DNA of 64,000 nt from sequence record PP993145.1. One strand, 5' to 3'. Origin of the DNA: Escherichia phage phiP4. Of the stretch, positions 17,528 to 39,443 are shown in pieces. The notes below the pieces were generated by a model. It saw only the letters and a program-made list of their open reading frames with translations, ran no database searches and had not been told where the DNA came from. Every line of letters begins with the position of its first letter. Position 1 is the stretch's first letter. Made by a program: the position numbers and the translations under genes.

Positions 17528-17605
17528 TGGTGGCTCCCCGAGGATTCGAACCTACGTACCTTCCGGTTATGAGCCGGGTGCTCATACCATATGAGCTTGA
17601 GAACC
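17528..17605 (-). tRNA. tRNA, anticodon CAU (Met-type)
   Basis: Acceptor GGTTCTC/GGGAGCC, D-arm GCTC-ATATGGTAT-GAGC, anticodon arm CCGG-CTCATAA-CCGG; T-stem weak. Confidence 0.5.
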
Positions 17606-17721: not shown

Positions 17722-18291
17722 TTAGAAATTTAGCTTCATAGCAAGAAAATTTTTCAAGTTTTCGGTAGACATCTCATCCACATCTACAGGAGAAACAAAG
17801 CCGTTTAATTTTCTAGCAAATTTTTCACCTGCAGGGTCATTATCCCCGACAGCTACCAATTTAAAAGGTAATAATTTCAGTTGCTTTAATAACGCTTTTC
17901 CTGGAGAAGAACCCAACATTGCCAGGGCTGGATAACCAGCGTTATGTAACGCAACTGCCTTAAATACAGATTCAGCAATCAATACTACTTTTTCATCTCC
18001 ATTGAGAGTTTCTAGTCCCCATACACACTGGATAGTAGAATAAGTAAAATATTTAGCTTCAAATGGGCACTTACCATGACCTTTTGGAGCAGAAGGATTA
18101 TACGTCTGATAGCCTCTCAACATCCCAGAGAAGTCATACAACGGGACTGTTAGCCATCCTTCCGGACTTAACCAGCAATGATATTTATCTGTATCAAATC
18201 CTCTAGATAAGAGGTGCTGTGTTAGCTCATCAACATTCATATTTGGTTCCTCTCTCAAATTTATAGATATATTATACAGAGAATTTAGCAT
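17722..18291 (-). CDS. Toprim-domain protein (primase-core-like)
   Basis: 189 aa; conserved Glu segment VVLIAESVFKAVAL and DxD segment VAVGDNDPAGE typical of Toprim folds. Confidence 0.45.
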   Translation of the reverse strand: MLNSLYNISINLREEPNMNVDELTQHLLSRGFDTDKYHCWLSPEGWLTVPLYDFSGMLRGYQTYNPSAPKGHGKCPFEAKYFTYSTIQCVWGLETLNGDEKVVLIAESVFKAVALHNAGYPALAMLGSSPGKALLKQLKLLPFKLVAVGDNDPAGEKFARKLNGFVSPVDVDEMSTENLKNFLAMKLNF

Positions 18292-18409
18292 TCAAGCAAT
18301 CAAATTTTTTAACTTTTTAGAGGAAAATCATATGGCACTTAAGGGTAGCAGATAAGTGGTGAGGACCAAAATTTGTGACCCCACTAAAAATCCGGGGGTA
18401 ATTTTTAAA

Positions 18410-18450
18410 GACCCCTTGACATTTTCTCGGGGGTAGTGTAAAGTATACGT
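18410..18450 (+). promoter_or_regulatory. sigma70-type promoter
   Basis: TTGACA (18416-18421), 17-bp spacer, TAAAGT (18439-18444), upstream of the plus-strand three-gene unit. Confidence 0.5.
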
Positions 18451-18506
18451 TATGGATGAGTGATCAAAGAGACACACATTTTCTATATACTAGGAGGTGT
18501 CAAAAA

Positions 18507-19493
18507 ATGACAGAAGAAGTAGCTAAGAGTCCTGAGACCGTCGCTAGCGTTGCAGCAGAACTGCACCGTCACGAGGAATCGGATAAGAAAAAGTGGGAGA
18601 AGGTCAGAGCCTACGAAGAGAAACATCGCGAACACGACGATGAAGAAGATGACGATGATGAACATTGTCATAAATATGGAAAACATAAAATGCAAGAACC
18701 AGTAAACGTATTCACTAGTGGCTTCCCTGGCCTACTGGGTGGTTACCCAGCAAACGCAGGTGCTTTCGGTGGTGAAGGTATGGGACTATTCGGAGCTATC
18801 CTAATCGGTGCTCTATTAACAGGCGGATTCGGTGGTTTCGGTGGATTCGGTGGACGTGGTGTAGTTGGTGATGGTACCGCAGTTGATGCAGTACTTCAGA
18901 ACCAAGATACCGCTAGTATTCTAGCAGCTATTAACACTACTCGTACAGAAGCTAACCAGGGTACTGGAGCTGTTTTAAGCGCAGTTAACAATGGTTTTAG
19001 CCAGACATCCCAAAACCAGAGCCGTGATACTCAGTCTGTACTAACTACGATCTATGGTACAGGTGCTAATCTGTCTAATCAGATCTGCCAGGAAACTCGC
19101 AACGTTATTCAGGGTCAGTTCGATCTTTCTCGCCAGATTGATCAATCTTTCGCAGCTAACCAGATAGCTCGTGCACAAGATAAGTTTGATTCTGCACAGA
19201 TCGCTTTCCAGCAGACTTTACAAACTAATAACCAGTTTGCCGCTGTTCAGGCTCAGATGTGTGCTAACCAGAACTCTCTGGAACGTCAGATCGCTGAATG
19301 TTGCTGTGAACTTCAGACTGCGATCGCTGGTGTAACTACTGCGCGTATCCAGGATGAGTTAGACGCATGTCGCCTACGTGAAGCAATCGCTGCTGGTAGC
19401 GGTGCTAACGGTCAGGTAATTAATCAAATCGCTTTAAGTCTTGGTGCTATCACTCAGACTCTGGCTGGTCTGCAGGCTAAACTGCCGGCTTAA
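18507..19493 (+). CDS. Gly-rich membrane protein with Gln/Asn-rich C-terminal region
   Basis: Start ATG after AGGAGG; charged N-terminus, glycine-zipper TM (GLFGAILIGALLTGGFGGFGGFGG), long Q/N/A/T-rich domain; host-like codon usage. Confidence 0.6.
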   Translation: MTEEVAKSPETVASVAAELHRHEESDKKKWEKVRAYEEKHREHDDEEDDDDEHCHKYGKHKMQEPVNVFTSGFPGLLGGYPANAGAFGGEGMGLFGAILIGALLTGGFGGFGGFGGRGVVGDGTAVDAVLQNQDTASILAAINTTRTEANQGTGAVLSAVNNGFSQTSQNQSRDTQSVLTTIYGTGANLSNQICQETRNVIQGQFDLSRQIDQSFAANQIARAQDKFDSAQIAFQQTLQTNNQFAAVQAQMCANQNSLERQIAECCCELQTAIAGVTTARIQDELDACRLREAIAAGSGANGQVINQIALSLGAITQTLAGLQAKLPA

Positions 19494-19514
19494 TATTAAG
19501 GGGAGGAGCCCATT

Positions 19515-19919
19515 ATGAGTAAATATGGTTTTGTAAATAACGGACTTAATCAAAGTATGGGCTCCCAGCAGCCCATGCCGGGTCTGGATAACCCCTACTT
19601 ACAACAGTTGCAACAGCGTTTAGCAGAAGCGCAACAGATGCAGCAACAACTCCAGCAAAACCCTGGAAGTGTGAGTCCTATGCAAATGATGCAGCAAATG
19701 AGCGGGCAGTCGCAAATGCCTCAACAAATGCAGCAACAGGTGCCGCAGCAGCAAACCCAACAACCGCAGGTTTCTGCGGAAGGACAGGCAGTACTAGCCC
19801 TTTTCGAAGACTTCGCAAAGACAGAGGATGGGAAACAGCTTGTATCACTTATGGGTAAGTTTAATAGCTTCTGCCAAAGCCAAGTTGCAAAAGCTCAAAA
19901 TGGTGGTAATAACTCCTAA
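19515..19919 (+). CDS. Gln-rich low-complexity protein
   Basis: 134 aa, MQQ/QQL repeats; strong RBS GGGGAGGAG. Confidence 0.5.
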   Translation: MSKYGFVNNGLNQSMGSQQPMPGLDNPYLQQLQQRLAEAQQMQQQLQQNPGSVSPMQMMQQMSGQSQMPQQMQQQVPQQQTQQPQVSAEGQAVLALFEDFAKTEDGKQLVSLMGKFNSFCQSQVAKAQNGGNNS

Positions 19920-19928
19920 GGAGGAATT

Positions 19929-20123
19929 ATGTGTTGCAGAAAATCTGTTTCGTGCTGCCCAATGCCTGTAACACGTTGTTGCTCTCCAGCAATGTTTACG
20001 CAAATACCGGCGTTCAATCCGTTTGCCTTTAAACCTATTCTTATCCTGCCCCCTAGAGTAGATTTTCAGTCAAGATTGGCCTCCCGTATGGGTGGTTGCT
20101 GTACACCGAGAGTGTGGTTCTAA
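19929..20123 (+). CDS. small Cys-rich protein
   Basis: 64 aa with CC pairs (MCCRK..CC..CC..GGCC); RBS AAGGAGG. Confidence 0.45.
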   Translation: MCCRKSVSCCPMPVTRCCSPAMFTQIPAFNPFAFKPILILPPRVDFQSRLASRMGGCCTPRVWF

Positions 20124-20137
20124 ACCAAAAAACAAAA

Positions 20138-20170
20138 GCCCCTGCCGAAAGGTAAGGGGCTTTTTCTTTT
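20138..20170 (+). terminator. rho-independent terminator (plus-strand unit)
   Basis: Hairpin gcccct-gccgaaaggta-aggggc followed by TTTTTCTTTT. Confidence 0.65.
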
Positions 20171-20184
20171 GCCTTAAATACAGA

Positions 20185-20220
20185 AAAGCCCGCGCTCTCG
20201 GAGGAAACGCGGGCTTGGTT
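20185..20220 (-). terminator. rho-independent terminator (SPFH gene)
   Basis: Hairpin agcccgcg...cgcgggct with T-run on minus strand, downstream of 20240..21187. Confidence 0.6.
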
Positions 20221-20239
20221 CGAAGATTACGTGTAACTA

Positions 20240-21187
20240 TTACTTGTTACGCATATCCATGATCATTTGACCATCGTAGCCAGTACCTACCACAGTCTGA
20301 GGCACACCACCTTGATACTTCTGAGCACGAATCATTTCAACTTCCAGTTGCTTCCAGCGAATCATCTCAGGAGTAATGGTACGTTGCAATGCGGCGTTAG
20401 CTTCAGCTTCTTTTTTAGCTGCGTACAGTTTAGCATCTGCGTCACGTTCGTTAGCAATAGCCTGGTTATTACGGGCTTCACGGTCTGCTTCTGCCTGTTT
20501 AACTTTTTGCTGTGCTTCTTGTTCAACACGAGCCAACTCAGCTTTTGCAGCATTAACTTGCTCTTCACGAACTTTGGTATTCTGTACCTGTTCCATGATT
20601 ACTGGTGGCAGAGTAATATCCTGAAGGAATACCTGCTTAACTGTGTAACCATATGGGCGTGCATACTCTTCAACTTCTTGTTGAATTGCAGTTTGCAATT
20701 GAGCCTGAATTTTAGCATCAAACAAATCTTGTGCTTTAGGTACAGACTTACCAAACTCACGAATAGTAGACAGTAATTTTTCAGTTACATATTTGTCTAA
20801 CGCTTGATCCTGAGTACCCGCATTAATACGGTTAATCGGTGCCTTAGAACCATCAAACTGCAACATAACAGTCAGGTCAACAGTGGATTTAAACTTATCC
20901 TGGCTAGGAACCTGAAGTTTATCTAATTTTACAGCAATATCTTTTGTACTAAAAGTATCGAAAGATGCAAATGGGTTTACAAGATGGAAACCCGGTAATA
21001 CTGGGTTAGGATCTACTTTACCCAGAAATGTTTGGGTTTTAACCGTACCATCAGAAACAATAGTATATGAATTAAAGGCTAGAATCAAGCCTGCTAAACC
21101 AACTACAGCACCAATACCCCAACGTTTAATAGTACGAATTACTTTCTGCTCAGAAGTCAGTTCTTTCATATTTTTAGTATTAAACAT
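20240..21187 (-). CDS. SPFH/band-7 (stomatin-prohibitin-HflK/C-like) membrane protein
   Basis: 315 aa; N-terminal TM helix, SPFH-like core, C-terminal coiled coil rich in A/E/Q/K/R (AEADREARNNQAIANERDADAKL). Confidence 0.65.
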   Translation of the reverse strand: MFNTKNMKELTSEQKVIRTIKRWGIGAVVGLAGLILAFNSYTIVSDGTVKTQTFLGKVDPNPVLPGFHLVNPFASFDTFSTKDIAVKLDKLQVPSQDKFKSTVDLTVMLQFDGSKAPINRINAGTQDQALDKYVTEKLLSTIREFGKSVPKAQDLFDAKIQAQLQTAIQQEVEEYARPYGYTVKQVFLQDITLPPVIMEQVQNTKVREEQVNAAKAELARVEQEAQQKVKQAEADREARNNQAIANERDADAKLYAAKKEAEANAALQRTITPEMIRWKQLEVEMIRAQKYQGGVPQTVVGTGYDGQMIMDMRNK

Positions 21188-21798: not shown

Positions 21799-21870
21799 TA
21801 CCGACCGTAGGATTCGAACCTACATCTTCCACCAGTTACGGCTTGATAATACCAATTATACTAGGACGGC
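21799..21870 (-). ncRNA. tRNA-like element (possible pseudo-tRNA)
   Basis: T-arm GTAGG-TTCGAAT-CCTAC and near-complementary acceptor strands, but the anticodon arm does not fold. Confidence 0.3.
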
Positions 21871-30085: not shown

Positions 30086-31227
30086 AAGAAATCTCCAAAT
30101 TCATTACCCAGATCTTTCAGAGTATCAGTAGAGGTCTCAGTTACCTGACCTACACGGTAAGCTGCACCAATCTGGATTTCTTGCGGAGCAGGCTGTAGAG
30201 AAGTAGTATCCAACCAGTTCATGATCCACGGAATAGGGTTTTTGGTGATTACTGGTAAGTGACTAGGCCATTCTACACCGATGTGCATAAATGCATTACG
30301 CCCCACAAAGTACAGATATTCTTCTAGAAGTTCTGCATTCAAGCCAATCAGACTACGACCTTTGAAAATGAAATGACCCCATTCAATTTCAGTTTTCAGA
30401 GTTTTCAGGAGCTGTGCTGGTGCTTTAGCCACTGCTTCATCTACCAGATCTTTGTCAAACTGCTGGAACATAATCTGGATGATTGCTTTAGACATCTGAG
30501 TGTGTAGAGCTTCATCTTTAGCAATTAATTGTAGGTTTTTAGCAATACCTTGCAGAATATCGTTCTCTGCTAATGCAAAGGTACATGCAAAGGATGCATA
30601 AAACTGCATTGCTTCCAGACCATAGATCGCAAAGTAAGCGTCTAATAGTTTAGCCTGAGTTTCACGTTTAACTTCAGGGAACTCAGTTTCTGGATATGTA
30701 TTGTCGCCACGATGATCGCGTACTGCGATGAAATACTGACCTAACTGGTACAGTTCATCGAATAGTTCAACAGAATCAGCGATGCGTGCGAATGCTTCTT
30801 GGTTTTTGGTTACAGAATCAATAAATTCTGCTGGATCAGTTAGCACATTACGAATAATATTGCTATAAGCACGACTATGCAGATCTTCGAAGTAGCTCCA
30901 CTGCTTGAGCATACCTTCCAATTCTGGACGACTTACAAGCGGCATAATAGCTGCTTCAGGAGCACGACTGATAAAGGAATCTGTTTGAGTTTGCCATGCT
31001 AAGTTCAGGAGTGTAATTTCCTGAATTTCCCGTGGGAGATTAGGCCATTGTTTCTTATCTGCTTCCAGACTGATTTCAGTTTCAGTCCAAAATTGAGAGC
31101 GTTGCAGAAGTGCCAGACGTTCTAGTTCTGGATGTGCTACACGTACATAATCTGCGATACCGAGAGAATCGCCCAGGAAAAGATCAGCGTTAGTATGGTC
31201 CCAATTCAGGTTTAGTAAAGTAGTCAT
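30082..31227 (-). CDS. nrdB: ribonucleotide reductase class I beta subunit
   Basis: 381 aa; diiron-site EALHT and conserved C-terminal region. Confidence 0.9.
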   Translation of the reverse strand: MTTLLNLNWDHTNADLFLGDSLGIADYVRVAHPELERLALLQRSQFWTETEISLEADKKQWPNLPREIQEITLLNLAWQTQTDSFISRAPEAAIMPLVSRPELEGMLKQWSYFEDLHSRAYSNIIRNVLTDPAEFIDSVTKNQEAFARIADSVELFDELYQLGQYFIAVRDHRGDNTYPETEFPEVKRETQAKLLDAYFAIYGLEAMQFYASFACTFALAENDILQGIAKNLQLIAKDEALHTQMSKAIIQIMFQQFDKDLVDEAVAKAPAQLLKTLKTEIEWGHFIFKGRSLIGLNAELLEEYLYFVGRNAFMHIGVEWPSHLPVITKNPIPWIMNWLDTTSLQPAPQEIQIGAAYRVGQVTETSTDTLKDLGNEFGDFL

Positions 31228-31333
31228 TGATTTTCCTCTTTCTCACTATTTCAGGAATATTATAGCAAATCTGGTAGCGATTAGCAAGTAAAATTTCAAA
31301 GAAAAAGGAGACCCGAAGATCTCCTTGTTTTTA

Positions 31334-33664
31334 TTAAATAGTACAACCACCGGATGCACAACCTGCTGCTTCTTCTCCAGCACCTCCACCATTTGCAGTA
31401 TTGAAGTTAGCATAGTAGAAAGTTTTCCACCCATACTTAACAGCAGTCATGAAATCACGAACTACTACTGGGCCAGGAATGATTTCATTCTCAAACTTGG
31501 TGTAGTCATAGTACATATTCGTACTGATAGACTGGCTGAAGAATTTCTGCATAGTTGCTACCCACTTGATCCACTCGATACGATCTACATCATAAGCCAG
31601 TTTATAGCTCATTAACGTTTCCCAATCGGTTGCACCTGGAGCAATTGCAATTACTTTATTCACTGCACTACCCTTGATAGATACAATCTTACGAGGCGGT
31701 TCAATAGAGTTAGTAACACCTAACAGAACAGAAGAACTTTCTCCTGGCATCTGAGCAGTCAGAACAGAGTTACGCATACCATATTTCAGAATATCTGCAC
31801 GCAGAGACTCCCAATCCATTTCTAGACCTACGGATACCAGTTCATCAACAGTTTTCTTGTAAGTGTCGATTACCAGAATTCCTTTAGATGGTTTAGTACG
31901 ATCAAACCACTCACATGCACCCTGTTCTTTAGCTAGGCGTACAGAGGCTTTATGCAGAAAGTAAGACAGTTTTTCAGCCTCACGGTGAATCCAGTTACGG
32001 GCTTCAATACCTTCATAAGCCAGACCTTCTGCTGCCATTGCACCTGCTGCGTTCATCAGGCCAATACCAACATTACGACGTTTCTTAGCCGTATATTCCA
32101 TAGTTGGGAACGGATAATCCTGAATTTCAATAATTGTATCAACGAATTTCAGGAGGATGTAGCAAGTTTTTTCCCACTCAGCCAGAGATTCCATGCGTCC
32201 AAGTACAACACCACCTAAGTTACACAGAGATACTTCACCAATATCCTCCGGCTTCATTTGATCAAGCTGCTCTTTTGTCTTATACAGCTCTGTGATATGA
32301 TGGAACGGGCGTGTAGGCTGAGTAATTTCAACACAAAGGTTTGTCATACGGATCGGATCAAGGAAGTTACCGTGACGGTTAGATTCCCCGATGTGATGAG
32401 CGTACATACGTCCTGTTTCCATTCGGATACGTAGCCAAGTATCTAGGATTTCTTTTGCAGAGACTTTAGGAGCTGCAGGAACTGTTTTTCCTTCGTGGTC
32501 GATCTTTGTAAGAGATGCCACACGTTTCTCCGCTGCCACGTAGATTTCTTCAAATTTAGCCTCGTCATCACTATAAAACGCTTCATGAACTTCTGGAGCA
32601 TAGAAGTATGACATTAGCGTAATATCTTCGTTTTTAAGATAACGTTTTAACAAAAGATTGTTAAAGCTCAGAGAATAATCCATCTTATCGATTTTATTCT
32701 CATCTGTAGCACGTTGTTGCTTAACCTGCATCAATTGAATGATTTCAGGGTCGAAGTACGGATAAGACACTGTGGCAGAACCACCACGAGTTTGCTGAGT
32801 ATTGGCCTTTACTGAGCGGTCAATGTGTCGATAATATGGCAGTTTTCCGGAATGCGGGAATGCCCCATTTCGCACCGGATCAGCAATTGATCGGCTTTCA
32901 AGATGATACCCGATTCCCGCTCTGGCTGCGACCATTTTGAAGACGATGTGCTCGGCGGTGTCGATTGAATCCAACGTGTCAGTGGAATCCACGAGGCAGC
33001 AACTAGCAAATCCACGGTCACTAGAGCGCAGACCAACCAGTGGCGGCGTAGGAACGTTGATTTTGTGGAGTGACATTGCATTGTAGAGGTCGATTGCATC
33101 TAGAATTGTCCAGTTAGGTTGAGATAACATCGCCATTGCCATACCCATGTAGGCAAACTGCGGGGTTTCATAAATTTCACCAGTGGCTATGTTACGACGG
33201 GAATACTTATCAAAGAACTGTTTCAGCCCACCACTAGTAAAAAGACGGTCACGATCGTGGTCTATAACCTGATTCAGAGCTTCAAATTGCTCATCGGTAA
33301 TCCATGCACTCATGTCTTCCCATGCACCTACGCTAACCATATGGTCATGGAAGAAGCGTAGAGAGGGTGGTTCGAAAGAATCATAAAGGCGTTTACGCAT
33401 TTGCGCAAGACGTAATTCCTTTGCTGGCACATCGTATGCTGGATTATCTTTGATAAGACTTTCAGCAGCTTTAATTAATGCATCCATCAGAGTGTCGGAA
33501 TCTACAACCCCTTTAGGCAGAGTTTTTTGAGCAGCCATAGTAATGGCTGACCAACTTACATCAACTGTTTTGCAACCATACTCTGCCCAACCATTGAGTT
33601 TTTCAGGAGCAAAGTCTTCTACAGTACCGTCACGTTTAATTACTTTTTCAATGCGATGGCTCAT
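31334..33664 (-). CDS. nrdA: ribonucleotide reductase class I alpha subunit
   Basis: ATP-cone start MSHRIEKVIKRDG with RBS AAGGAAA; catalytic core including NLCVEI; upstream in-frame Met codons of the 811-aa ORF probably not used. Confidence 0.9.
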   Translation of the reverse strand: MSHRIEKVIKRDGTVEDFAPEKLNGWAEYGCKTVDVSWSAITMAAQKTLPKGVVDSDTLMDALIKAAESLIKDNPAYDVPAKELRLAQMRKRLYDSFEPPSLRFFHDHMVSVGAWEDMSAWITDEQFEALNQVIDHDRDRLFTSGGLKQFFDKYSRRNIATGEIYETPQFAYMGMAMAMLSQPNWTILDAIDLYNAMSLHKINVPTPPLVGLRSSDRGFASCCLVDSTDTLDSIDTAEHIVFKMVAARAGIGYHLESRSIADPVRNGAFPHSGKLPYYRHIDRSVKANTQQTRGGSATVSYPYFDPEIIQLMQVKQQRATDENKIDKMDYSLSFNNLLLKRYLKNEDITLMSYFYAPEVHEAFYSDDEAKFEEIYVAAEKRVASLTKIDHEGKTVPAAPKVSAKEILDTWLRIRMETGRMYAHHIGESNRHGNFLDPIRMTNLCVEITQPTRPFHHITELYKTKEQLDQMKPEDIGEVSLCNLGGVVLGRMESLAEWEKTCYILLKFVDTIIEIQDYPFPTMEYTAKKRRNVGIGLMNAAGAMAAEGLAYEGIEARNWIHREAEKLSYFLHKASVRLAKEQGACEWFDRTKPSKGILVIDTYKKTVDELVSVGLEMDWESLRADILKYGMRNSVLTAQMPGESSSVLLGVTNSIEPPRKIVSIKGSAVNKVIAIAPGATDWETLMSYKLAYDVDRIEWIKWVATMQKFFSQSISTNMYYDYTKFENEIIPGPVVVRDFMTAVKYGWKTFYYANFNTANGGGAGEEAAGCASGGCTI

Positions 33665-33806
33665 TTGGCTTTCCTTTTTATAGTTATCAGGATTTAAGGA
33701 ATATTCTACTTTATTATCGGTCATTAGGCAAATAAAATTTTCTGATAGAAAAGGCCCGAGTATTTTCATACCCAGGCCCTGTATATTACCAGTCTAGCTT
33801 TTTAGC

Positions 33807-34028
33807 TTATTCAATTACTTTAGCTCTAGCTACTTCTTTTAATAGAATATCTATGGAGGTGCTCAGCTCGTTATAGTTGAATGGTTTATTTGGATTTGAG
33901 GTTACAATTTTCCACGCTAGGGTTGTCTTAGGACTTTCTTCCCCTTCCTTACGTGTAATCATATTAGCAGCACTCAGTGAAGTACGATGTATTTTAGTTT
34001 TACGGCTCAGATGAACGACGTTTCCCAT
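33807..34028 (-). CDS. hypothetical protein
   Basis: Trimmed to Met overlapping phoH stop (ATG/TAA overlap). Confidence 0.3.
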   Translation of the reverse strand: MGNVVHLSRKTKIHRTSLSAANMITRKEGEESPKTTLAWKIVTSNPNKPFNYNELSTSIDILLKEVARAKVIE

Positions 34029-34029
34029 A

Positions 34030-34791
34030 TTACACCTTCCCCATGTCTTTAAAAATATCATAGAATGCTTTAGACTCAACAGAACGAACGTTATCAATCA
34101 ATTCGATCATTGAGAATGGGGCATTTTCGTATTTTTCATAGACTTCCATAAGGAGTGCTAGACCTGAGTCACCTTTAATGTCTTTCTGAGCTATATCTCC
34201 GCAGATAATTAAACGGCAGTCTTGTCCTACACGAGTTAGGAGACAAATCATTGCCTCAACGGAAATATTCTGAGCTTCATCGACAATTACATAGGAGTTG
34301 TTGAAAGTTCTGCCACGAGCATGTTCGATAGCCAAAAATTTAATTTTCTGACGTTCGACATATCCTTTATATGCATGATCGCCGATGGCCCATTTCATAC
34401 CATCAGCTATTGGCTCCAACCAAGGCTCTAGCTTTTCCGCTAGATCACCAGGAAGCATACCAAGAGACTTACCTAGAGGTTCATTAGGACGTACGAGAAT
34501 CACTTGCTCAATATCTGAGTGAATGTCTACGAGTTCCTGAGCTGCAAGAACGGACGGAATAAAGGTTTTACCAGTACCTGGCTCGCCGATACCCACAGTC
34601 ACTGTGTTGTTCTTGATCATATTGATATATGATTTTTGCTCGCGGTTTTTACCTACTAGGGATTTAGCAACTGGGTTAGCGTAATCATTAGAAAAATCAG
34701 CCTGAATTACGTTGTTCTCATATTTGTTGCCACGCTTTCTTGAACCATTGCGGTTCTCTCTTTTTTGACGTGCTTTTCCCATAAATAACAC
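34030..34791 (-). CDS. phoH: PhoH-like ATPase
   Basis: 253 aa; Walker A GEPGTGKTF and DEAQN Walker B. Confidence 0.85.
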   Translation of the reverse strand: MLFMGKARQKRENRNGSRKRGNKYENNVIQADFSNDYANPVAKSLVGKNREQKSYINMIKNNTVTVGIGEPGTGKTFIPSVLAAQELVDIHSDIEQVILVRPNEPLGKSLGMLPGDLAEKLEPWLEPIADGMKWAIGDHAYKGYVERQKIKFLAIEHARGRTFNNSYVIVDEAQNISVEAMICLLTRVGQDCRLIICGDIAQKDIKGDSGLALLMEVYEKYENAPFSMIELIDNVRSVESKAFYDIFKDMGKV

Positions 34792-35069
34792 TCCTATAGT
34801 GTACTTCGCTAACAGAGGATCAACAAAAAGATCTTGTTTATCAACTTACAAATATATTATACCAATATATACAGTAAAAAGCAACTACAATTTTAAATAA
34901 GCCTATGATATTGCATTTAAATAAAAAATTTGCTTGCTTTTAACGTGAGATGTGTGATACTAGATAATCATTTTATATCGCGTGCACGAGTGCGTGATTA
35001 TACAATTTTTAATAGAGATTGGCAAATAAAATTTTTTGACTCAGATCATGTTACAGAACTTTATAGTAA

Positions 35070-35110
35070 AATATTGTTGACATCCGCCCTCGAATGAGTT
35101 ATAATAGTAG
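35070..35110 (+). promoter_or_regulatory. sigma70-type promoter for nrdD
   Basis: TTGACA (35077-35082), 17-bp spacer, TATAAT (35100-35105). Confidence 0.55.
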
Positions 35111-35134
35111 TCTTAGTTAGAGAAGGAGAGTATA

Positions 35135-37009
35135 ATGAATCGCAATGAAGAACTAAAGTATAAAGAAATGCAGGCGTTAATTAGAAACTGCAAAGAGATT
35201 ATCGAAGGGTCAGCAGATGAAGAGCTGCTGTTTAATAATGCTAATAAACCCTCAGAACGTTTCCCTACACAAAGGGATATGCTTGCAGGTGAGTTGAGTA
35301 AGTATCTGATTCTAGAAGAAATGCCAATTCAGATTCGAAATGCTCATATGATTGGGGATATTCATTTCCATGATGCTGATTATGCTGCATTAGGCATGAC
35401 TAACTGTTGCCTGGTAGCTCTGGAAGATATGTTAAAGAATGGTATGAAGGTTGGTAATGCTGAAATTAGCACTCCAAACTCTATCACTACTGCGGCGGCT
35501 ATCACTGCTCAGATTATCACTCAAGTTAGCTCCCATCAGTATGGTGGTACTTCTGTAGATCGCCTTGATGAAGTATTAGCCCCTTATGTTCGTAAATCCT
35601 ATGACAAAAATCATGCGTTTGCAAAACGTTGGACTAAGGATGAAGCCAAAGCATCTGTAATGGCTACGGAGATGACTGAAAAAGAAGTCTATGACGCTTG
35701 TCAGGGTTTAGAATATGAAATCAATACCATGTTTAACTCTAATGGTCAGAGTCCATTTATTACCTTTGGTTTTGGTCTAGGAACTTCCTGGGAAGCACGT
35801 CTAGTACAGAAAGCAATACTGAAAGTACGCATGGATGGTTTAGGTATCAATAAACGTACAGCTATCTTCCCAAAACTGGTATTTGTACTTCGTGATGGCG
35901 TAAATATGAAACCAGGAGATGTTAATTATGACATCAAGAAGTTAGCTATGAAATGTACTGCTGAACGTATGTATCCAGATTATATCAGCTATGACAAAGT
36001 TGTAGAAGTTACTGGAGACTACAAAGTTTCTATGGGCTGCCGTTCATTCCTAGCTGCTACAGAAGATGGTGAAACTGCCGGTCGTAATAACTTAGGTGTT
36101 GTTTCTGTAAACTTGCCTAGAATTGCTATCGAAGCTGAAGGAAATATTGACCTATTCTTTGATTTGCTTGAGCTACGTGTGGATACAGCATTAAAAGCGT
36201 TGGAGTGGAGAGTTGATCGCTTAAAATATATCCAAGCTAAAGCTGCACCCATCCTCTATATGTCAGGAGCTTTTGGGTTACGCTTGGAGCCTGATGAATA
36301 TGTATTCGATCATTTCTATAACCGTGCTTCTGTATCCCTAGGGTATATTGGTTGCCATGAAATGCTACAGTTCATGTTTGGCAAAGATGTAGACACAATG
36401 TCCGAGACCTGCATCAAGTTTGTTCAGCGTGTATTGCAGTACATGCGAGATAGGGTAGATCAGAAGAAGGAAGAAACTAAGTTAGGTTATAGCCTATATG
36501 CTACACCATCGGAATCCCTATGCGATCGTTTTTGTCGTCTAGACCGTGAGTATTTCCCGGAGCATGAAGATATTCTGTCCAAAGGATACTACACTAACTC
36601 GCACCACCTTGATGTAGAACGTAAAGTTGCTCCTAACGTCAAATTTGATTATGAATCTAACTTTACTCCGATTGCTTCTGGTGGGTGCATTTCCTATGTA
36701 GAACTACCAGATATGAAACGATTCCCAGATGCACTGGAATGGGTTATTAATTATGCCGCTAGTAAAGTTCATTACTTCGGTATCAATACTCCAGTGGATT
36801 CTTGTGGTAAATGTGGATTCTTAGGTGAAACAATAGCATCCGAGGATGGATTTAAGTGCCCTATCTGTGGTAATCATGACCCCGAAACTCTTGAAGTAAC
36901 TCGTCGAGTTTGTGGGTATCTTGGAAATCCGGGTGCTCGTCCCTTTAACCCCGGCAAACAGCACGAGGTGATGGGCAGAGTGAAACATCAGGATATTCGA
37001 GCTAAATAA
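35135..37009 (+). CDS. nrdD: anaerobic ribonucleotide reductase class III
   Basis: 624 aa; C-terminal glycyl radical motif RVCGYLG and Cys-rich Zn site. Confidence 0.9.
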   Translation: MNRNEELKYKEMQALIRNCKEIIEGSADEELLFNNANKPSERFPTQRDMLAGELSKYLILEEMPIQIRNAHMIGDIHFHDADYAALGMTNCCLVALEDMLKNGMKVGNAEISTPNSITTAAAITAQIITQVSSHQYGGTSVDRLDEVLAPYVRKSYDKNHAFAKRWTKDEAKASVMATEMTEKEVYDACQGLEYEINTMFNSNGQSPFITFGFGLGTSWEARLVQKAILKVRMDGLGINKRTAIFPKLVFVLRDGVNMKPGDVNYDIKKLAMKCTAERMYPDYISYDKVVEVTGDYKVSMGCRSFLAATEDGETAGRNNLGVVSVNLPRIAIEAEGNIDLFFDLLELRVDTALKALEWRVDRLKYIQAKAAPILYMSGAFGLRLEPDEYVFDHFYNRASVSLGYIGCHEMLQFMFGKDVDTMSETCIKFVQRVLQYMRDRVDQKKEETKLGYSLYATPSESLCDRFCRLDREYFPEHEDILSKGYYTNSHHLDVERKVAPNVKFDYESNFTPIASGGCISYVELPDMKRFPDALEWVINYAASKVHYFGINTPVDSCGKCGFLGETIASEDGFKCPICGNHDPETLEVTRRVCGYLGNPGARPFNPGKQHEVMGRVKHQDIRAK

Positions 37010-37016
37010 GCTAATC

Positions 37017-37050
37017 AGCCGGGTTGCTAGTCGACCTGGCTTTTATTTTA
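37017..37050 (+). terminator. rho-independent terminator
   Basis: Hairpin after nrdD stop followed by TTTTATTTTATTT. Confidence 0.5.
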
Positions 37051-37088
37051 TTTGCTTTCAGCCAAAAATTTATATATAATAGATTTAT
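37045..37088 (+). promoter_or_regulatory. T5-type early promoter
   Basis: TTGCTT (37052-37057), 17-bp spacer, TATAAT (37075-37080), A/T-rich upstream. Confidence 0.55.
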
Positions 37089-37108
37089 AAATTTGATGAG
37101 AGAAAGAT

Positions 37109-37321
37109 ATGAGAGTTCACAAGGTAGATAAAGAACGTATCTATTTTATTATGGATTCTGGGGCGTATGGTTCCATTCTCCGTGGGGATATAACTAAATT
37201 ATGTTTAGTAAATACTTGGATGAACGAAGGGAAGATTGATCCTAGGGTGGGATTGTGCTTATCCGAACCCGCCCTTTCTATTGCTAATGCAGAAATTGAA
37301 ATGTTTGAGGAACAAGAATGA
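37109..37321 (+). CDS. hypothetical protein
   Basis: 70-aa ORF with RBS. Confidence 0.4.
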   Translation: MRVHKVDKERIYFIMDSGAYGSILRGDITKLCLVNTWMNEGKIDPRVGLCLSEPALSIANAEIEMFEEQE

Positions 37322-37521
37322 AAAACGTAAAACATCTTAAATATCGCTTAATTTACAACGGACGTATGGAAACAGAAGATCTGGCCCAGTTAGCTATTAA
37401 TTCTAATGAGGTTACAGTGCGTGCGCTGGCAATTGAAAAGTTGCGTGCCTCTTATGAAAATCGTGTTATGGAACTAGAGGAGAAACTTTATGGCATTCTC
37501 GAAGCTGATGCTACCAGATAA
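37318..37521 (+). CDS. hypothetical protein
   Basis: 67-aa ORF, ATGA overlap. Confidence 0.4.
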   Translation: MKNVKHLKYRLIYNGRMETEDLAQLAINSNEVTVRALAIEKLRASYENRVMELEEKLYGILEADATR

Positions 37522-37711
37522 GGGTTTAAACGACGCTTTGGAAAACGCATTAATGCAGCAGTGGGAAACTGGCTATAAGGATGGTGTTGAATCCTGTGCT
37601 ACTATGCTAGAAGTTATTGCTAATACCTTAATGGAGAAAGGCAATAAAGAATTAGCTGAGCTATTAGACAGTATTGGGCAAAACTTCAGAGAACAGGTGA
37701 AAAATGCGTAG
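37490..37711 (+). CDS. hypothetical protein
   Basis: 73-aa ORF. Confidence 0.4.
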   Translation: MAFSKLMLPDKGLNDALENALMQQWETGYKDGVESCATMLEVIANTLMEKGNKELAELLDSIGQNFREQVKNA

Positions 37712-38519
37712 ATTAATTATTATTAGTGGTGCAGGTTTGAGTGTTGAAAGTGGTGTACGAGCTTTTCGTACTGATACTGCTAGTGGTAAAGCATTGTGGG
37801 ATGATTATGATCTAGAAGAGGTATGTAATATTCATGCCTTTCGTGGTAATTTTTATCATAAAACCCATATGTTTTACAACAAGCGTCGTGAAGAGCTAAA
37901 AACTGTTGAACCCAATCTTGCGCATTTGCGTATTGGTGAATGGTATAAACAATATCCAGGCCAAGTAGTAAACTTGACTACCAACGTTGATGACCTTATT
38001 GAGCGTGCTGGCGTTCCACATAGTGACATTCTGCACATTCACGGATATTTAAAAGAGGTTGTTGTAGCTGATAGCTACAATAGTAGCAATAAACGGATTA
38101 TTGATGTAGGGTACAATTCTATTGATCCAGACGATTATAAATGGGTTAAACCTAATGTAATCTTTTTTGGGGAGCATGCTCCAGCGTACGCAGAAATGTA
38201 CAATGTTTTTGATGGTATTACCAGTCAAGATATGATCGTTGTGGTTGGTTGCTCTAACCAAGTAATTAACTTCTACTGGGAATTATTTCCTGTTCTTAAT
38301 TTGACTGCTGCCAAGCTAATGGTTGTTAACTACTATGATAGTGCCCTAGCGGCGGAACCGAGCTATCAAGGTATGACTCGTAGTGAGATGTACCAGCTGG
38401 AAGAACGCGGTATCCCTTACTGGAGTAAAGGTGCGGTAGATGCTTTCAGTGATCCTGATTTTATTGCTCGTGTAGAAGCTCATTTAGAGGGTAGACCTTA
38501 TGTGTCAGGAAATAAGTAA
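37704..38519 (+). CDS. Sir2-family (sirtuin-like) NAD-dependent protein
   Basis: 271 aa; N-terminal GAGLSVESGVRAFR matches the sirtuin NAD-binding signature; HIHGYL catalytic-His context. Confidence 0.6.
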   Translation: MRRLIIISGAGLSVESGVRAFRTDTASGKALWDDYDLEEVCNIHAFRGNFYHKTHMFYNKRREELKTVEPNLAHLRIGEWYKQYPGQVVNLTTNVDDLIERAGVPHSDILHIHGYLKEVVVADSYNSSNKRIIDVGYNSIDPDDYKWVKPNVIFFGEHAPAYAEMYNVFDGITSQDMIVVVGCSNQVINFYWELFPVLNLTAAKLMVVNYYDSALAAEPSYQGMTRSEMYQLEERGIPYWSKGAVDAFSDPDFIARVEAHLEGRPYVSGNK

Positions 38520-39012
38520 TACTCCAATTATTTTTCTAGACATTGATGGGGTGCTCAATTCGAGCATCTCCCAATATCATGCGCCTGATGATGAAAAGAT
38601 TTTCTTTGGAAGTGATTGGGTTTTCAAACCGCTTCTCAAGGCTTTTCAGGACTTTATTCGTCCTTCTCCAATAATGATTGTTGGAGTATCATCTTGGTTC
38701 TCTGTCAGAAATGAGATGGAGAACGTTCAGATTATGACCGGATTAGGTCTTATCGATCGTTTTCTTGGTACAACGGATTTTACTGGGGGTGGATTATCTA
38801 GGGGTAATTCTGTTCTTCGCTTCGTTGAAAAGCATAAGCTCAAACATTGGTGTGTGCTTGATGATGCGGGTGCTATGATGTATCAGTATCCAACGGTTAT
38901 AGTCAACGGTAGGACTGGAATAAATCTTCAAGATTTAAGAGCTGTTAGCTATATGTTAGAATTTAGTCCGGATCTTGAAATGTGTAAATCCTTACAACAA
39001 TTTAAGGTGTAA
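38500..39012 (+). CDS. HAD-superfamily phosphatase-like protein
   Basis: 170 aa; N-terminal FLDIDGVLN resembles HAD motif I. Confidence 0.4.
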   Translation: MCQEISNTPIIFLDIDGVLNSSISQYHAPDDEKIFFGSDWVFKPLLKAFQDFIRPSPIMIVGVSSWFSVRNEMENVQIMTGLGLIDRFLGTTDFTGGGLSRGNSVLRFVEKHKLKHWCVLDDAGAMMYQYPTVIVNGRTGINLQDLRAVSYMLEFSPDLEMCKSLQQFKV

Positions 39013-39014
39013 AT

Positions 39015-39443
39015 ATGTTCAACAATGTATTCTCTAAAGAAGCTAACCCAATTTTGGTTAACTTTTGGCGTACTCTCCCAGCTAGCCTGTATAATGAGAC
39101 TATTAACTCTTTGAAAATATGGTGTGAGAATAACGAAATCTCCTTTGCTTTTAAAGATGATATTGATGAGGCTCCCTGTATTGGTTTAATTGTTCAGGTA
39201 GAGGAGGGTCTTGAAGAGATTGTCGGCTGGAAAGAGTTAGATGAAATGGGCTTAGTTTTTGCATTAAACTATAAGCTGTTTATGCCTGCTAAGCATCGCC
39301 TCGTTGTTAACTATAAAACTAGTGAATCTCCTGGTTTTCAGGTTAATGAACGTTATGGTTGGTCTTACTCACCGGAAGAAGTAAATGAGGGGATTCAGAA
39401 ACTTCGACGTTTCGGGTATATGATCCCAGGTTTAACTGCTTAA
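39015..39443 (+). CDS. hypothetical protein (paralog 1 of tandem pair)
   Basis: 142 aa; shares W..L.EMGL.FALN..LF.P and C-terminal G(Y/I)..PGL with the next ORF. Confidence 0.5.
   Translation: MFNNVFSKEANPILVNFWRTLPASLYNETINSLKIWCENNEISFAFKDDIDEAPCIGLIVQVEEGLEEIVGWKELDEMGLVFALNYKLFMPAKHRLVVNYKTSESPGFQVNERYGWSYSPEEVNEGIQKLRRFGYMIPGLTA

What the first reader, a model, noticed from the sequence alone, without database searches (positions are those of the whole stretch)
18290..20230. Compositionally distinct plus-strand three-gene unit embedded in the minus-strand tRNA region
Surrounded by minus-strand genes, this unit has its own consensus-like promoter (TTGACA-17-TAAAGT), strong GGAGG RBSs, higher GC and host-optimal codons. 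It encodes a membrane protein with a glycine-zipper TM helix and a long Gln/Asn-rich domain, a Gln-rich low-complexity protein and a 64-aa Cys-rich peptide, and ends in a clean terminator. I do not recognise any of the three. The architecture looks like a moron or accessory cassette, possibly involved in superinfection exclusion, membrane remodelling or host takeover.
Basis: partly seen in the sequence, partly recalled or inferred. Interest (0 to 1): 0.6.

Follow-up and report, generated by a model that had tools for sequence, protein, structure and literature searches.

The report
Dispensable three-gene phage T5 membrane cassette
This is a real, self-contained three-gene unit of T5-like phages (T5.077-079) that the phage can live without; its main protein belongs to a large, unstudied phage family of membrane-seeking coiled-coil proteins marked by three consecutive cysteines, and what it does is still unknown.

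Summary
Window 18416-20216 carries a plus-strand unit: promoter TTGACA-17-TAAAGT, three GGAGG-led ORFs (328, 134, 64 aa) and convergent terminators. It equals T5.077/078/079 with promoter P12, already annotated as hypothetical. GC is high (2nd-3rd of 67 ORFs), but ORF1's GC3 is ordinary and only ORF1 has raised CAI.

New here:
- ORF1 belongs to a large uncharacterised phage family (621 cluster representatives; PHROGs 8119, 16490, 9288; no Pfam). It has a Gly-rich hydrophobic segment, a roughly 110-residue helix and a near-invariant CCC triplet.
- The whole trio recurs in N4-like and Mu-portal-type phage contigs. ORF3 always starts Met-Cys-Cys.
- The cassette is dispensable. Viable T5Mos deletes P12 and half of T5.077; phages SUT_E1620 and phiR2-01 lack it.
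- P12 differs from the stereotyped T5 early promoters.

No known family, fold or defence model matches. A match to influenza HA2 is order-dependent but weak, and hhalign does not confirm it.

Best reading: an autonomous, horizontally mobile accessory module acting at the host envelope, possibly in superinfection exclusion. The function is inferred, not shown. "Moron-like accessory cassette" is partly supported.

The parts
18416..18444 (+). Promoter (P12 equivalent): -35 TTGACA 18416-18421, 17-nt GC-containing spacer, -10 TAAAGT 18439-18444
   Evidence: 10 of 12 consensus matches. Annotated as promoter P12 in T5 and Salmonella phage 5. Identical hexamers in the divergent relative L003. Lacks the A-tract/TTGCTT/AAATT/TATAAT/ATAAATT pattern of neighbouring early promoters.
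18507..19493 (+). ORF1 (T5.077 ortholog), 328 aa: N-terminal helix, acidic/His-rich linker, Gly-rich hydrophobic segment, long helical A/Q/N/T-rich domain with a CCC triplet; RBS AGGAGG at 18492-18497
   Evidence: phrog_8119 at E = 2.7e-204. Family alignment and profile search. AF2 model at pLDDT 69.5. dN/dS 0.15 against T5.
18783..18839 (+). ORF1 residues 93-111, GLFGAILIGALLTGGFGGF: hydrophobic glycine-zipper segment, a putative membrane-inserting or transmembrane segment, followed by GGFGG repeats
   Evidence: Kyte-Doolittle 19-residue mean 1.72. G91, G110 and G112 are invariant in the T5-type alignment. 59% of family members exceed 1.6. Topology is not resolved.
19005..19334 (+). ORF1 residues 167-276: a single predicted helix of about 110 residues (coiled-coil stalk)
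   Evidence: AF2 with the 115-sequence alignment, pLDDT 85-96 over residues 170-270. Regular heptad spacing of hydrophobic residues around the CCC, read directly from the sequence.
19299..19307 (+). Codons TGT TGC TGT = Cys265-Cys266-Cys267, the family's signature CCC triplet; the first Cys falls on a heptad core position
   Evidence: Invariant in alignment A1. Present in 124 of 147 top profile hits. Near-invariant in A3.
19515..19919 (+). ORF2 (T5.078 ortholog), 134 aa: Gln/Pro/Met-rich low-complexity N-terminal half plus a conserved C-terminal domain (about residues 87-127, nt 19773-19895; LFE-FA-TEDGKQLV--GKFN-FCQS); RBS GGAGG at 19502-19506
   Evidence: phrog_7894 at E = 4.3e-76. 118 homologs. 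Alignment A7 has 16 invariant columns, including one Cys. dN/dS 0.20. No Pfam or PDB match.
19929..20123 (+). ORF3 (T5.079 ortholog), 64 aa: Cys/Pro-rich peptide starting Met-Cys-Cys, with four CC pairs; RBS GGAGG at 19920-19924
   Evidence: Equivalent ORFs directly after ORF2 in all five other cassettes examined, including N4-like and Mu-portal-type contigs. All start MCC and have a second CC pair (alignment A8). Rarely called by annotators.
20134..20170 (+). Rho-independent terminator of the cassette (GC-rich hairpin plus T-run; an A-run upstream makes it bidirectional)
   Evidence: Fold. Annotated as an 'efficient bidirectional rho-independent terminator' in T5 and 'ter1' in phage 5.
20186..20216 (-). 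Second hairpin: terminator of the converging SPFH/Band-7 gene. It contains GCGC (20192-20195), which corresponds to a T5 major single-strand nick site.
   Evidence: (12-bp stem, minus strand). T5 nick feature at 39746-39747, mapped by offset.

Best explanation
The locus is an autonomous, dispensable and horizontally exchangeable accessory module of virulent phages. Host sigma-70 RNA polymerase transcribes it from its own strong promoter, which is not of the early type. Three translationally close-packed proteins result. ORF1 is proposed to insert its glycine-zipper hydrophobic segment into the host inner membrane and to oligomerise through a roughly 110-residue coiled-coil stalk, with the CCC triplet forming a ring of thiols (interchain disulfides or a metal site) in or next to the coiled-coil core. 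ORF2 (a flexible Gln/Pro-rich tether plus a small conserved domain with one invariant Cys) and ORF3 (an N-terminal Cys-Cys peptide) are proposed partners of that stalk. The complex is proposed to act on the infected cell's envelope to the phage's advantage in natural settings. The most likely role is blocking or modifying entry of competing phages (superinfection exclusion or envelope conditioning). It is not proposed to build the virion, replicate DNA or carry out lysis. Shown: gene reality, conservation, regulatory signals, family membership, dispensability, occurrence in unrelated phage backbones. Inferred: membrane insertion, oligomerisation, physical association of the three proteins, and the biological role. 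The descriptive part (a real, conserved, dispensable, mobile cassette) I hold at about 0.9. The stated confidence refers to the whole statement, including the envelope-directed or exclusion role.
For: Autonomy: promoter, RBSs and terminator, the same architecture in T5, phage 5 and the 36%-identity relative L003. P12 differs from eight-plus stereotyped early promoters and resembles P-K28b and P-J5. The early-promoter consensus is described in PMC3326045 and the ATATT discriminator in PMC7472727. Reality and selection: dN/dS 0.15, 0.20 and 0.55. ORF3 is conserved as an MCC-initiated ORF in six cassettes. Dispensability: T5Mos deletion 30661-38625 is viable (PMC11464382), against P12 at 37954-38028 and T5.077 at 38064-39029. 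SUT_E1620 keeps only the last 43 nt. phiR2-01 has none, while relative L016 has it beside the same pnuC/nadR genes. Mobility: the full trio sits next to an N4-type virion RNA polymerase (L014) and next to a Mu-like portal and terminase (L015). In L015 it is bracketed by near-identical hairpins. Membrane and coiled coil: hydrophobic segment at KD 1.72; AF2 long helix with pLDDT 85-96; CCC invariant. Not lysis or structure: T5 already has an endolysin, a holin and two Rz-like spanins elsewhere. High expression signals: consensus -35, GGAGG RBSs, ORF1 CAI 0.41.
Against: There is no experimental or homology evidence for superinfection exclusion or any other envelope role. PADLOC, Pfam, NCBIfam, PDB sequence and fold searches are all empty. 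Topology is unresolved: K/R counts flanking the hydrophobic segment are low on both sides (0.43 against 0.65), and 41% of family members fall below a classical TM threshold. ORF2 and ORF3 lack signal peptides, so if ORF1's stalk is periplasmic they could not meet it. In crAss-like genomes, ORF1 relatives sit inside the head-gene block between small terminase and major capsid protein, which fits a virion-related role better. Those relatives have different downstream partners, so the trio may not be one machine. Near-universal presence (395 records against 448) is unusual for a classical exclusion moron. Expression timing of P12 was not found in the literature searched.
Confidence: 0.38

Rival explanations
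1. Virion-associated or morphogenetic protein. ORF1-family proteins would be head- or ejection-associated components, for example membrane-penetrating ejection or 'cargo' proteins or a fibre. In T5 the cassette would be a non-essential relic or auxiliary particle protein.
For: In the Steigviridae genome cr116_1 the homolog lies between small terminase and the major capsid protein, on the same strand as the head genes. crAss-type and subgroup-2 homologs are followed by a conserved small protein and DUF7841, in loci that can include CrAss_Ring_2. An extended helical, Gly-rich hydrophobic composition recalls tape-measure and ejection proteins (general knowledge). crAss homologs are annotated 'outer capsid protein/viral fiber' or 'spike protein'.
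Against: T5Mos, SUT_E1620 and phiR2-01 make infectious particles without it. In T5-like phages the cassette lies in the early/tRNA region, 40 kb or more from the structural genes. The phiCrAss001 cryo-EM atlas text lists no such component, and phiCrAss001 gave no tblastn hit. Other subgroup-2 loci sit among replication and nucleotide-metabolism genes. The crAss labels are weak coiled-coil-type annotations.
Confidence: 0.2
2. Lysis-related accessory. ORF1 would be a spanin-like or fusogenic envelope protein (membrane anchor, coiled coil and cysteine-linked oligomers, like i-spanin Rz), or a lysis-timing regulator, with ORF3 as a proline- and cysteine-rich small partner analogous to an o-spanin.
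For: The architecture resembles i-spanins: an N-proximal hydrophobic anchor, a long helix and conserved Cys. ORF3 is small and rich in Pro (14%) and Cys. Cell-wall hydrolase or holin genes lie within a few genes of some homologs: cr116_1 holin and L,D-carboxypeptidase, an L028 lysozyme four genes upstream, and Hydrolase_2 about 2 kb away in T5-like loci. It is dispensable in the laboratory, as some lysis accessories are.
Against: T5 already encodes an endolysin, a holin and two Rz-like spanins 15 kb or more away. ORF3 has no signal peptide or lipobox; it starts directly MCC, with no in-frame upstream extension. Adjacency to lysis genes is loose and inconsistent. Some family members come from predicted archaeal-virus records, where no outer membrane exists.
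Confidence: 0.12
3. Metal- or redox-handling complex. The His-rich acidic N-terminus of ORF1 (up to HHYHHHHHEH in variants), the CCC triplet, ORF2's invariant Cys and ORF3's CC pairs would together bind a metal or Fe-S-type cluster, or act as a thiol redox relay, in the cytoplasm at the membrane.
For: His-rich N-terminal variants appear in several lineages. Invariant cysteines occur in all three proteins. ORF2 and ORF3 lack export signals, and the slight K/R excess on the C-terminal side of the hydrophobic segment is compatible with a cytoplasmic stalk. Many crAss-type homologs carry Cys-rich C-terminal tails (GCGCG, CCN...), which may stand in for ORF3.
Against: No match to any known metal-binding or redox family. 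The His-rich stretch is variable and absent from most of the family. Cys parity is uninformative (53% even). This is entirely inferential.
Confidence: 0.1
4. True homolog of class I viral fusion proteins (influenza HA2-like), meaning a phage-encoded membrane fusogen.
For: The family profile hits HA2 chains at E = 8e-5 to 1e-3 against PDB sequences, covering the fusion-peptide C-half and helix A. Real HA2 scores 25.3 bits, against a maximum of 20.8 in 5000 composition-preserving shuffles. ORF1's hydrophobic segment starts GLFGAI, like the HA2 fusion peptide, and BLASTP gives 31% identity over 72 residues at E = 0.007 for one comparison.
Against: hhalign gives only 10% probability and aligns a different region. 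The T5-type profile alone scores 9.4 bits, matched by 93 of 5000 shuffles. All the HA2 hits are one redundant family, so they count as one observation. GLFGAI is confined to close T5 relatives. There is no C-terminal anchor or HR2-like element. Foldseek finds nothing.
Confidence: 0.05

Closest known systems
T5.077 / T5.078 / T5.079 with promoter P12 and the bidirectional terminator (Escherichia phage T5, NC_005859 / AY543070); ORF 327aa / 138aa / 64aa of Salmonella phage 5 (AJ604531)
   Same: Orthologous locus: same order, strand, promoter, RBSs and terminator. ORF1 is about 81% identical to T5's and 97% identical at the DNA level to phage 5.
   Different: Nothing functional is attached to those records (all 'hypothetical protein'), and no paper in the searched library names these genes.
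PHROGs 8119, 16490 and 9288 (unknown function), including Crassvirales genes labelled 'spike protein/glycoprotein' or 'outer capsid protein/viral fiber'
   Same: Shared core: a short N-terminal motif, a Gly/aromatic-rich hydrophobic segment (GGFGGFGG), a long Q/N/S/T-rich helix and a CCC triplet.
   Different: T5-type proteins add a 60-90-residue charged or His-rich N-terminal domain and come with ORF2 and ORF3. crAss-type and subgroup-2 proteins have other downstream partners (a ~95-140-aa protein, DUF7841) and often Cys/Gly/Tyr-rich C-terminal tails.
Phage morons and superinfection-exclusion membrane proteins (e.g. T5 Llp/Cor, T4 Imm and Sp, HK97 gp15; recalled from general knowledge)
   Same: A self-contained promoter-gene-terminator unit embedded against the local transcription direction, non-essential in the laboratory, with a predicted membrane protein.
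   Different: No sequence or structural similarity. This is a lytic phage, and the unit is nearly universal in its clade and under purifying selection rather than sporadic. No exclusion phenotype has been tested.
Two-component spanins (i-spanin Rz / o-spanin Rz1 type)
   Same: An N-proximal membrane anchor plus a coiled-coil periplasmic-type domain with conserved cysteines; a small Pro/Cys-rich second protein.
   Different: ORF3 has no lipoprotein signal. T5 has separate Rz-like spanins (T5.044/045). The cassette is not in the lysis cluster and is dispensable.
Influenza haemagglutinin HA2 (class I fusion protein)
   Same: A Gly-rich hydrophobic peptide followed by a Q/N/T-rich long helix. There is a weak, order-dependent profile match.
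   Different: Not confirmed by hhalign. No C-terminal TM, HR2 or cleavage-activation context. This is best treated as analogy.

Membership tests
phrog_8119 (ORF1) and phrog_7894 (ORF2), T5-like hypothetical protein families | Full-length profile match | tested here: met
   E = 2.7e-204 over 1-328 of 332 positions, and E = 4.3e-76 over 1-134 of 139.
Wider 'CCC' phage protein family (PHROGs 8119 + 16490 + 9288; defined here) | Gly-rich hydrophobic segment, then a long helical Q/N-rich region with a CCC triplet | tested here: met
   Profile search found 621 representatives at E <= 1e-3, and 124 of 147 top hits contain CCC. Distant members cross-hit phrog_8119 and phrog_16490.
Moron / accessory cassette | Own promoter and terminator, independent of flanking operons | tested here: met
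Moron / accessory cassette | Non-essential for lytic growth | tested here: met
   From the literature and comparative data: T5Mos deletion 30661-38625 (PMC11464382); SUT_E1620 and phiR2-01 lack it.
Moron / accessory cassette | Sporadic presence among close relatives | tested here: not met
   395 records match the cassette against 448 for DNA polymerase. 218 of 222 records carry it complete. Only two natural absences were found.
Moron / accessory cassette | Atypical nucleotide composition indicating foreign origin | tested here: inconclusive
   GC is 0.465-0.469 against about 0.39, but ORF1's GC3 is 0.344 (ordinary) while ORF2's GC3 is 0.467. The excess is mostly an amino-acid composition effect.
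Two-component spanin | o-spanin: signal peptide with a lipobox Cys | tested here: not met
   ORF3 begins MCC with no upstream in-frame extension and no hydrophobic leader.
Two-component spanin | i-spanin: N-terminal TMD with a periplasmic coiled coil | tested here: inconclusive
   A hydrophobic segment and a long helix are present. Topology is unresolved, and the segment is preceded by about 90 charged residues in the T5 type.
Two-component spanin | Located in or linked to the lysis cassette; the phage otherwise lacks spanins | tested here: not met
   T5 has lys, holin and two Rz-like spanins at 19.9-23.2 kb, while the cassette is at 38-39.7 kb.
Class I viral fusion protein (HA2-like) | Significant sequence or profile homology | tested here: inconclusive
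   hmmsearch gives E = 8e-5 and beats 5000 of 5000 shuffles. But hhalign probability is 10%, and the T5-only profile is not significant.
Class I viral fusion protein (HA2-like) | C-terminal transmembrane anchor and an HR2 region forming a six-helix bundle | tested here: not met
   There is only one hydrophobic segment, and it is N-proximal. The AF2 monomer shows no hairpin. Foldseek finds no hits.
Class I viral fusion protein (HA2-like) | Trimeric coiled coil and fusogenic activity | not testable with these tools
   No multimer prediction or assay was available.
Known anti-phage defence or counter-defence proteins (PADLOC models) | Profile match | tested here: not met
   No hits for ORF1-3.

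The most novel reading that the evidence does not exclude
ORF1 would represent a large, unrecognised class of tailed-phage proteins that insert a fusion-peptide-like glycine-zipper into membranes from an oligomeric coiled-coil stalk locked by a cysteine-triplet ring. That would be a prokaryotic-virus counterpart, by convergence or very deep ancestry, of class I fusion or viroporin-type machines. In the T5-type module it would work with two dedicated small cysteine proteins, including peptides with an obligate N-terminal Cys-Cys. This three-part machine would be traded between unrelated virulent phage families (T5-like, N4-like, Mu-portal-type, with relatives in Crassvirales) to remodel or seal the host envelope.
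Probability: 0.12. Interest if true: 0.85.

Novelty: new variant of a known kind. Interest (0 to 1): 0.55.

Why it matters
T5 is a classical model phage, and crAss-like phages dominate the human gut virome. A protein family shared by both, with more than 600 sequence clusters and no Pfam entry or known function, is a sizeable gap. The T5 cassette makes the family experimentally tractable. It is non-essential, sits in a well-mapped deletable region, has a defined promoter and terminator, and natural and laboratory deletion strains already exist. Comparing those strains could quickly reveal a phenotype in exclusion, host range, envelope integrity or metal and redox handling. The Met-Cys-Cys peptides and the invariant CCC in a coiled coil are unusual chemistry for phage proteins. 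The finding also corrects annotation: ORF3 is usually not called in GenBank records, although it is conserved across phage families.

Tried and rejected
- Family libraries: Pfam, NCBIfam and PADLOC scans of all three proteins gave nothing above noise. PHROGs gave only unknown-function families.
- PDB sequence searches with single sequences and with the ORF2 and ORF3 profiles gave nothing.
- Structure: AF2 with a shallow alignment was poor (pLDDT 49). A deeper alignment gave a confident long helix, but Foldseek against PDB and BFVD returned no significant match. Helical stalks are uninformative for fold search.
- HA2 lead: followed with residue alignments, a shuffle control, hhalign and BLASTP. 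Rejected as evidence of homology and kept only as an architectural analogy.
- Spanin idea: rejected for T5 because Rz-like spanins are annotated elsewhere and ORF3 lacks a lipobox.
- Prophage or host origin: a scan of 185,579 species genomes with the subgroup-2 profile found one 2-kb MAG contig only, so this is not a prophage-borne family.
- Literature: no paper names T5.077-079. Phage essentiality screens (HIDEN-SEQ, transposon studies) do not cover T5. AKFV33 virion proteomics resolved only four bands. The phiR2-01 supplementary tables are not held, and that phage lacks the cassette anyway.
- Tool behaviour: the search for related loci with very diverse alignments failed for lack of a conserved stretch. 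The tblastn and 'distant' modes returned a fixed 222 records, fewer than megablast's 395, so presence counts rest on megablast.
- Neighbour annotation of subgroup-2 loci showed no consistent functional block.

Full report
WHAT IS THERE. The window is a T5-like phage (Markadamsvirinae). The stated interval is 97-98% identical to many Salmonella and Escherichia phages. Between minus-strand tRNA genes and small ORFs lie three plus-strand ORFs:
- ORF1, 18507-19493 (328 aa)
- ORF2, 19515-19919 (134 aa)
- ORF3, 19929-20123 (64 aa)

They correspond to T5.077, T5.078 and T5.079 of phage T5 and to 'ORF 327aa/138aa/64aa' of Salmonella phage 5. In both records the promoter (P12), the three ribosome-binding sites and an 'efficient bidirectional rho-independent terminator' are already annotated, and all products are 'hypothetical'. 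The mechanical ORF1 start at 18456 is not used, because 18507 has the AGGAGG site.

SIGNALS. The promoter is TTGACA (18416), 17 nt, TAAAGT (18444), one of two 10-of-12 consensus matches in the region. Each ATG is preceded by GGAGG at 5-9 nt. After ORF3 come two hairpins: 20134-20164 with a U-run for the cassette, and 20186-20216 for the converging SPFH gene. The fold has z = -3.6. When aligned with eight-plus annotated T5 early promoters, P12 lacks their stereotyped A-tract/TTGCTT/AAATT/TATAAT/ATAAATT design. It resembles P-K28b (shared TTGACATTTTC) and P-J5, which lies in the late region. The literature describes that early consensus (PMC3326045) and an ATATT discriminator common to all known early promoters (PMC7472727). 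A T5-like metagenomic relative whose ORF1 is only 36% identical keeps the same two hexamers and the convergent terminator pair. I found no direct data on the timing of P12.

COMPOSITION. ORF1 and ORF2 have GC of 0.465 and 0.469, against about 0.39 for typical genes, ranking 2nd-3rd of 67 ORFs. ORF1's GC3 (0.344) is ordinary. CAI against E. coli highly expressed genes is 0.41 for ORF1 (about 7th of 67) and 0.25 for ORF2, which is average. The GC excess is therefore mostly a consequence of Gly/Ala/Gln-rich proteins. The 'host-optimal codons' claim holds only moderately, and only for ORF1.

THE PROTEINS. ORF1 has four parts:
- A conserved N-terminal helix (residues 12-45, pLDDT above 90).
- A variable acidic or His-rich linker, which reaches HHYHHHHHEH in some relatives.
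- A conserved EPVNVFT motif followed by a glycine-zipper hydrophobic segment, GLFGAILIGALLTGGFGGF (Kyte-Doolittle 1.72), and GGFGG repeats.
- An Ala/Gln/Thr/Asn-rich domain predicted as one helix of about 110 residues (167-276, pLDDT 85-96), then shorter helices.

Cys265-266-267 are invariant. The surrounding hydrophobic residues follow a 3-4 heptad spacing that puts the first Cys on a core position (read from the sequence). ORF2 is 26% Gln in its first half and has a conserved C-terminal domain of about 40 residues with one invariant Cys. ORF3 has four CC pairs and 14% Pro. None of the three matches Pfam, NCBIfam, PADLOC or PDB sequences. ORF1 and ORF2 fall in PHROGs 8119 and 7894, both of unknown function.

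A LARGE FAMILY. Word-indexed search found ORF1 relatives almost only on ~110-kb T5-like contigs, down to 36% identity, plus four distant proteins. An exhaustive profile search found 621 cluster representatives at E <= 1e-3. Of the 147 top hits, 124 contain CCC. They link PHROGs 8119, 16490 and 9288. Typical members are 250-330 aa, with a short N-terminus, GGWGGFGGFGG-type hydrophobic segments, a long Q/N/S/T-rich helical region, '[A/S]xCCC[E/D]', and often Cys/Gly/Tyr-rich tails. Many sit in crAss-like genomes, where curators labelled them 'spike protein/glycoprotein' or 'outer capsid protein/viral fiber'. In cr116_1 the gene lies between small terminase and the major capsid protein. A second subgroup occurs in 40-90-kb viral contigs, always followed by a conserved ~95-aa protein and, further on, by a DUF7841-like protein. 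It sits amid mixed replication, nucleotide-metabolism and cell-wall-hydrolase genes. Bacterial genomes essentially lack the family: there was one 2-kb MAG contig.

THE TRIO IS A MOBILE UNIT. The complete ORF1-ORF2-ORF3 set occurs in:
- divergent T5-like contigs (L003, L013);
- a contig carrying an N4-type virion RNA polymerase (L014);
- a 62-kb contig with a Mu-like portal and terminase (L015; related to Pseudomonas phage RSP).

In every case ORF2 keeps its C-terminal domain and ORF3 starts Met-Cys-Cys with a second CC pair 9-30 residues later (alignments A7 and A8). ORF3 is therefore real, although gene callers rarely report it. Between the window and T5, dN/dS is 0.15 for ORF1, 0.20 for ORF2 and 0.55 for ORF3, the last based on few substitutions. 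In L015 two near-identical hairpins bracket the unit.

DISPENSABILITY. The PARIS study describes T5Mos, a viable T5 whose only major difference is a deletion of 30661-38625 (PMC11464382). With P12 at 37954-38028 and T5.077 at 38064-39029, this removes the promoter and about half of ORF1. The end point falls inside the gene in either T5 coordinate system. Escherichia phage SUT_E1620 retains only the last 43 nt of ORF3. Yersinia phage phiR2-01 has no cassette between its nadR-like and SPFH genes, whereas relative L016 has the cassette beside the same pnuC/nadR pair. Otherwise the cassette is nearly universal: 395 records against 448 for the polymerase gene by megablast, and complete in 218 of 222 records.

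WHAT IT IS NOT. It is not the lysis system, because T5 has an endolysin, a holin and two Rz-like spanins elsewhere, and ORF3 has no lipoprotein signal. It is not an essential virion part, given the deletions above. It is not a known defence or counter-defence protein.

THE HA2 LEAD. The family profile hit influenza HA2 chains at E about 1e-4, covering the fusion-peptide C-half plus helix A. ORF1's hydrophobic segment begins GLFGAI, as the HA2 fusion peptide does. Real HA2 (25.3 bits) beat all 5000 composition-preserving shuffles (maximum 20.8), and the reversed sequence scored -1. However:
- the T5-only profile gives 9.4 bits, and 93 of 5000 shuffles do as well;
- hhalign gives 10% probability on a different register;
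- pairwise BLASTP is marginal;
- the many HA2 hits are one redundant family;
- Foldseek finds nothing.

I keep this as an architectural analogy only.

INTERPRETATION. The shown facts fit an autonomous, highly expressed, non-essential, exchangeable module whose main product is a membrane-seeking coiled-coil oligomer with a cysteine ring. I commit, at modest confidence, to an envelope-directed accessory role in the infected cell, with superinfection exclusion or envelope conditioning as the leading candidate. The rivals are a virion or ejection-related role (favoured by the crAss context), a lysis accessory, a metal or redox complex, and true fusion-protein homology. Topology is unresolved: flanking K/R counts are 0.43 against 0.65, and 59% of members pass a TM threshold. 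That matters because ORF2 and ORF3 have no export signals.

VERDICT. The 'moron/accessory' reading is partly right: the unit is autonomous, dispensable and mobile, but it is near-universal and under selection. Four results are new here:
- the size and signature of the ORF1 family;
- the cross-family conservation of the whole trio, including the MCC peptide;
- the compiled evidence for dispensability;
- the distinct promoter class.

The function remains open.

Noticed in passing
window 20192-20195 (within hairpin 20186-20216): A GCGC motif (minus strand A|GCGCG) at the position that maps by offset to T5's annotated 'major DNA single-chain interruption' (T5 39746-39747). One of the genome's programmed nick sites therefore appears to sit inside the terminator of the converging SPFH gene, at the cassette's 3' edge.
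   Followed up: partly
window 17531-17605 (-) and 21799-21870 (-): Rfam tRNA matches above the gathering score (40.3 and 35.5 bits) that ARAGORN did not list. The first corresponds in position to T5 tRNA-Ile2(CAU). The second lies in the region equivalent to T5's stable 'RNAX'.
   Followed up: no
window 20240-21187 (-): The converging neighbour (T5.080 ortholog, annotated 'lipoprotein') is an SPFH/Band-7 protein (Pfam E = 2e-17) under very strong purifying selection (dN/dS 0.008 against T5). It is not consistently next to the cassette in other phage backbones, so it is probably not part of the unit.
   Followed up: partly
window 17722-18291 (-): The upstream neighbour (T5.076 ortholog) is a small Toprim-like protein. 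Its best PADLOC match is the DnaG-like domain of a defence-associated reverse transcriptase model (E = 5.9e-7). It is truncated in SUT_E1620, where the cassette is deleted.
   Followed up: no
window 18379-18398 and 18412-18433: Two CCCC...GGGGG inverted repeats just upstream of and around the -35 hexamer of P12. The second encloses TTGACA itself. This could be an operator or a weak upstream terminator. It is less perfect in T5.
   Followed up: no
L014 3756-3911 (-) and L015 3746-3892 (-): In both non-T5 backbones a divergently oriented ORF of about 50 aa with a zinc-ribbon-like pattern (C..CG...CPECG...RKSRR.KK) lies immediately upstream of the cassette. This conserved neighbour is absent from T5-like loci and may be a regulator travelling with the module.
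   Followed up: no
L015 3651-3678 and 5639-5664: Near-identical terminator-like hairpins (GCCCTGGAG[A/T]AATCCGGGGCTT) bracket the cassette in the Mu-portal-type contig. This suggests insertion or exchange by recombination at repeated hairpins.
   Followed up: no
window 18507-20123 compared with T5 (L002 5065-6672): Synonymous divergence from T5 is uneven: dS is 0.47 in ORF1 but only 0.10-0.11 in ORF2 and ORF3 (0.21 and 0.35 in the flanking genes). This indicates a recombination breakpoint inside the cassette.
   Followed up: no
L016 1751-3501; phiR2-01 HE956708 37522-39256 (L040 4523-6257): Some T5-like phages carry pnuC-like and nadR-like NAD-salvage genes at the position of the Toprim-like gene, next to the cassette site. 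This is another variable accessory insert at the same hotspot.
   Followed up: no
Family-wide (P0152, P0154, P0027, P0030, P0159 etc.): Many crAss-type family members end in 'NTVPV.YPN' followed by Cys-, Gly- and Tyr-rich tails (GCGCG, CCNQ, GYGYGYG). These may be a fused counterpart of the separate Cys-rich ORF3 peptide of the T5-type module.
   Followed up: no
search_dna_similar, phages collection: The tblastn and 'distant' blastn modes returned exactly 222 records for three different queries, whereas megablast returned 395. Counts from those two modes look capped or drawn from a reduced set and should not be used for prevalence.
   Followed up: no
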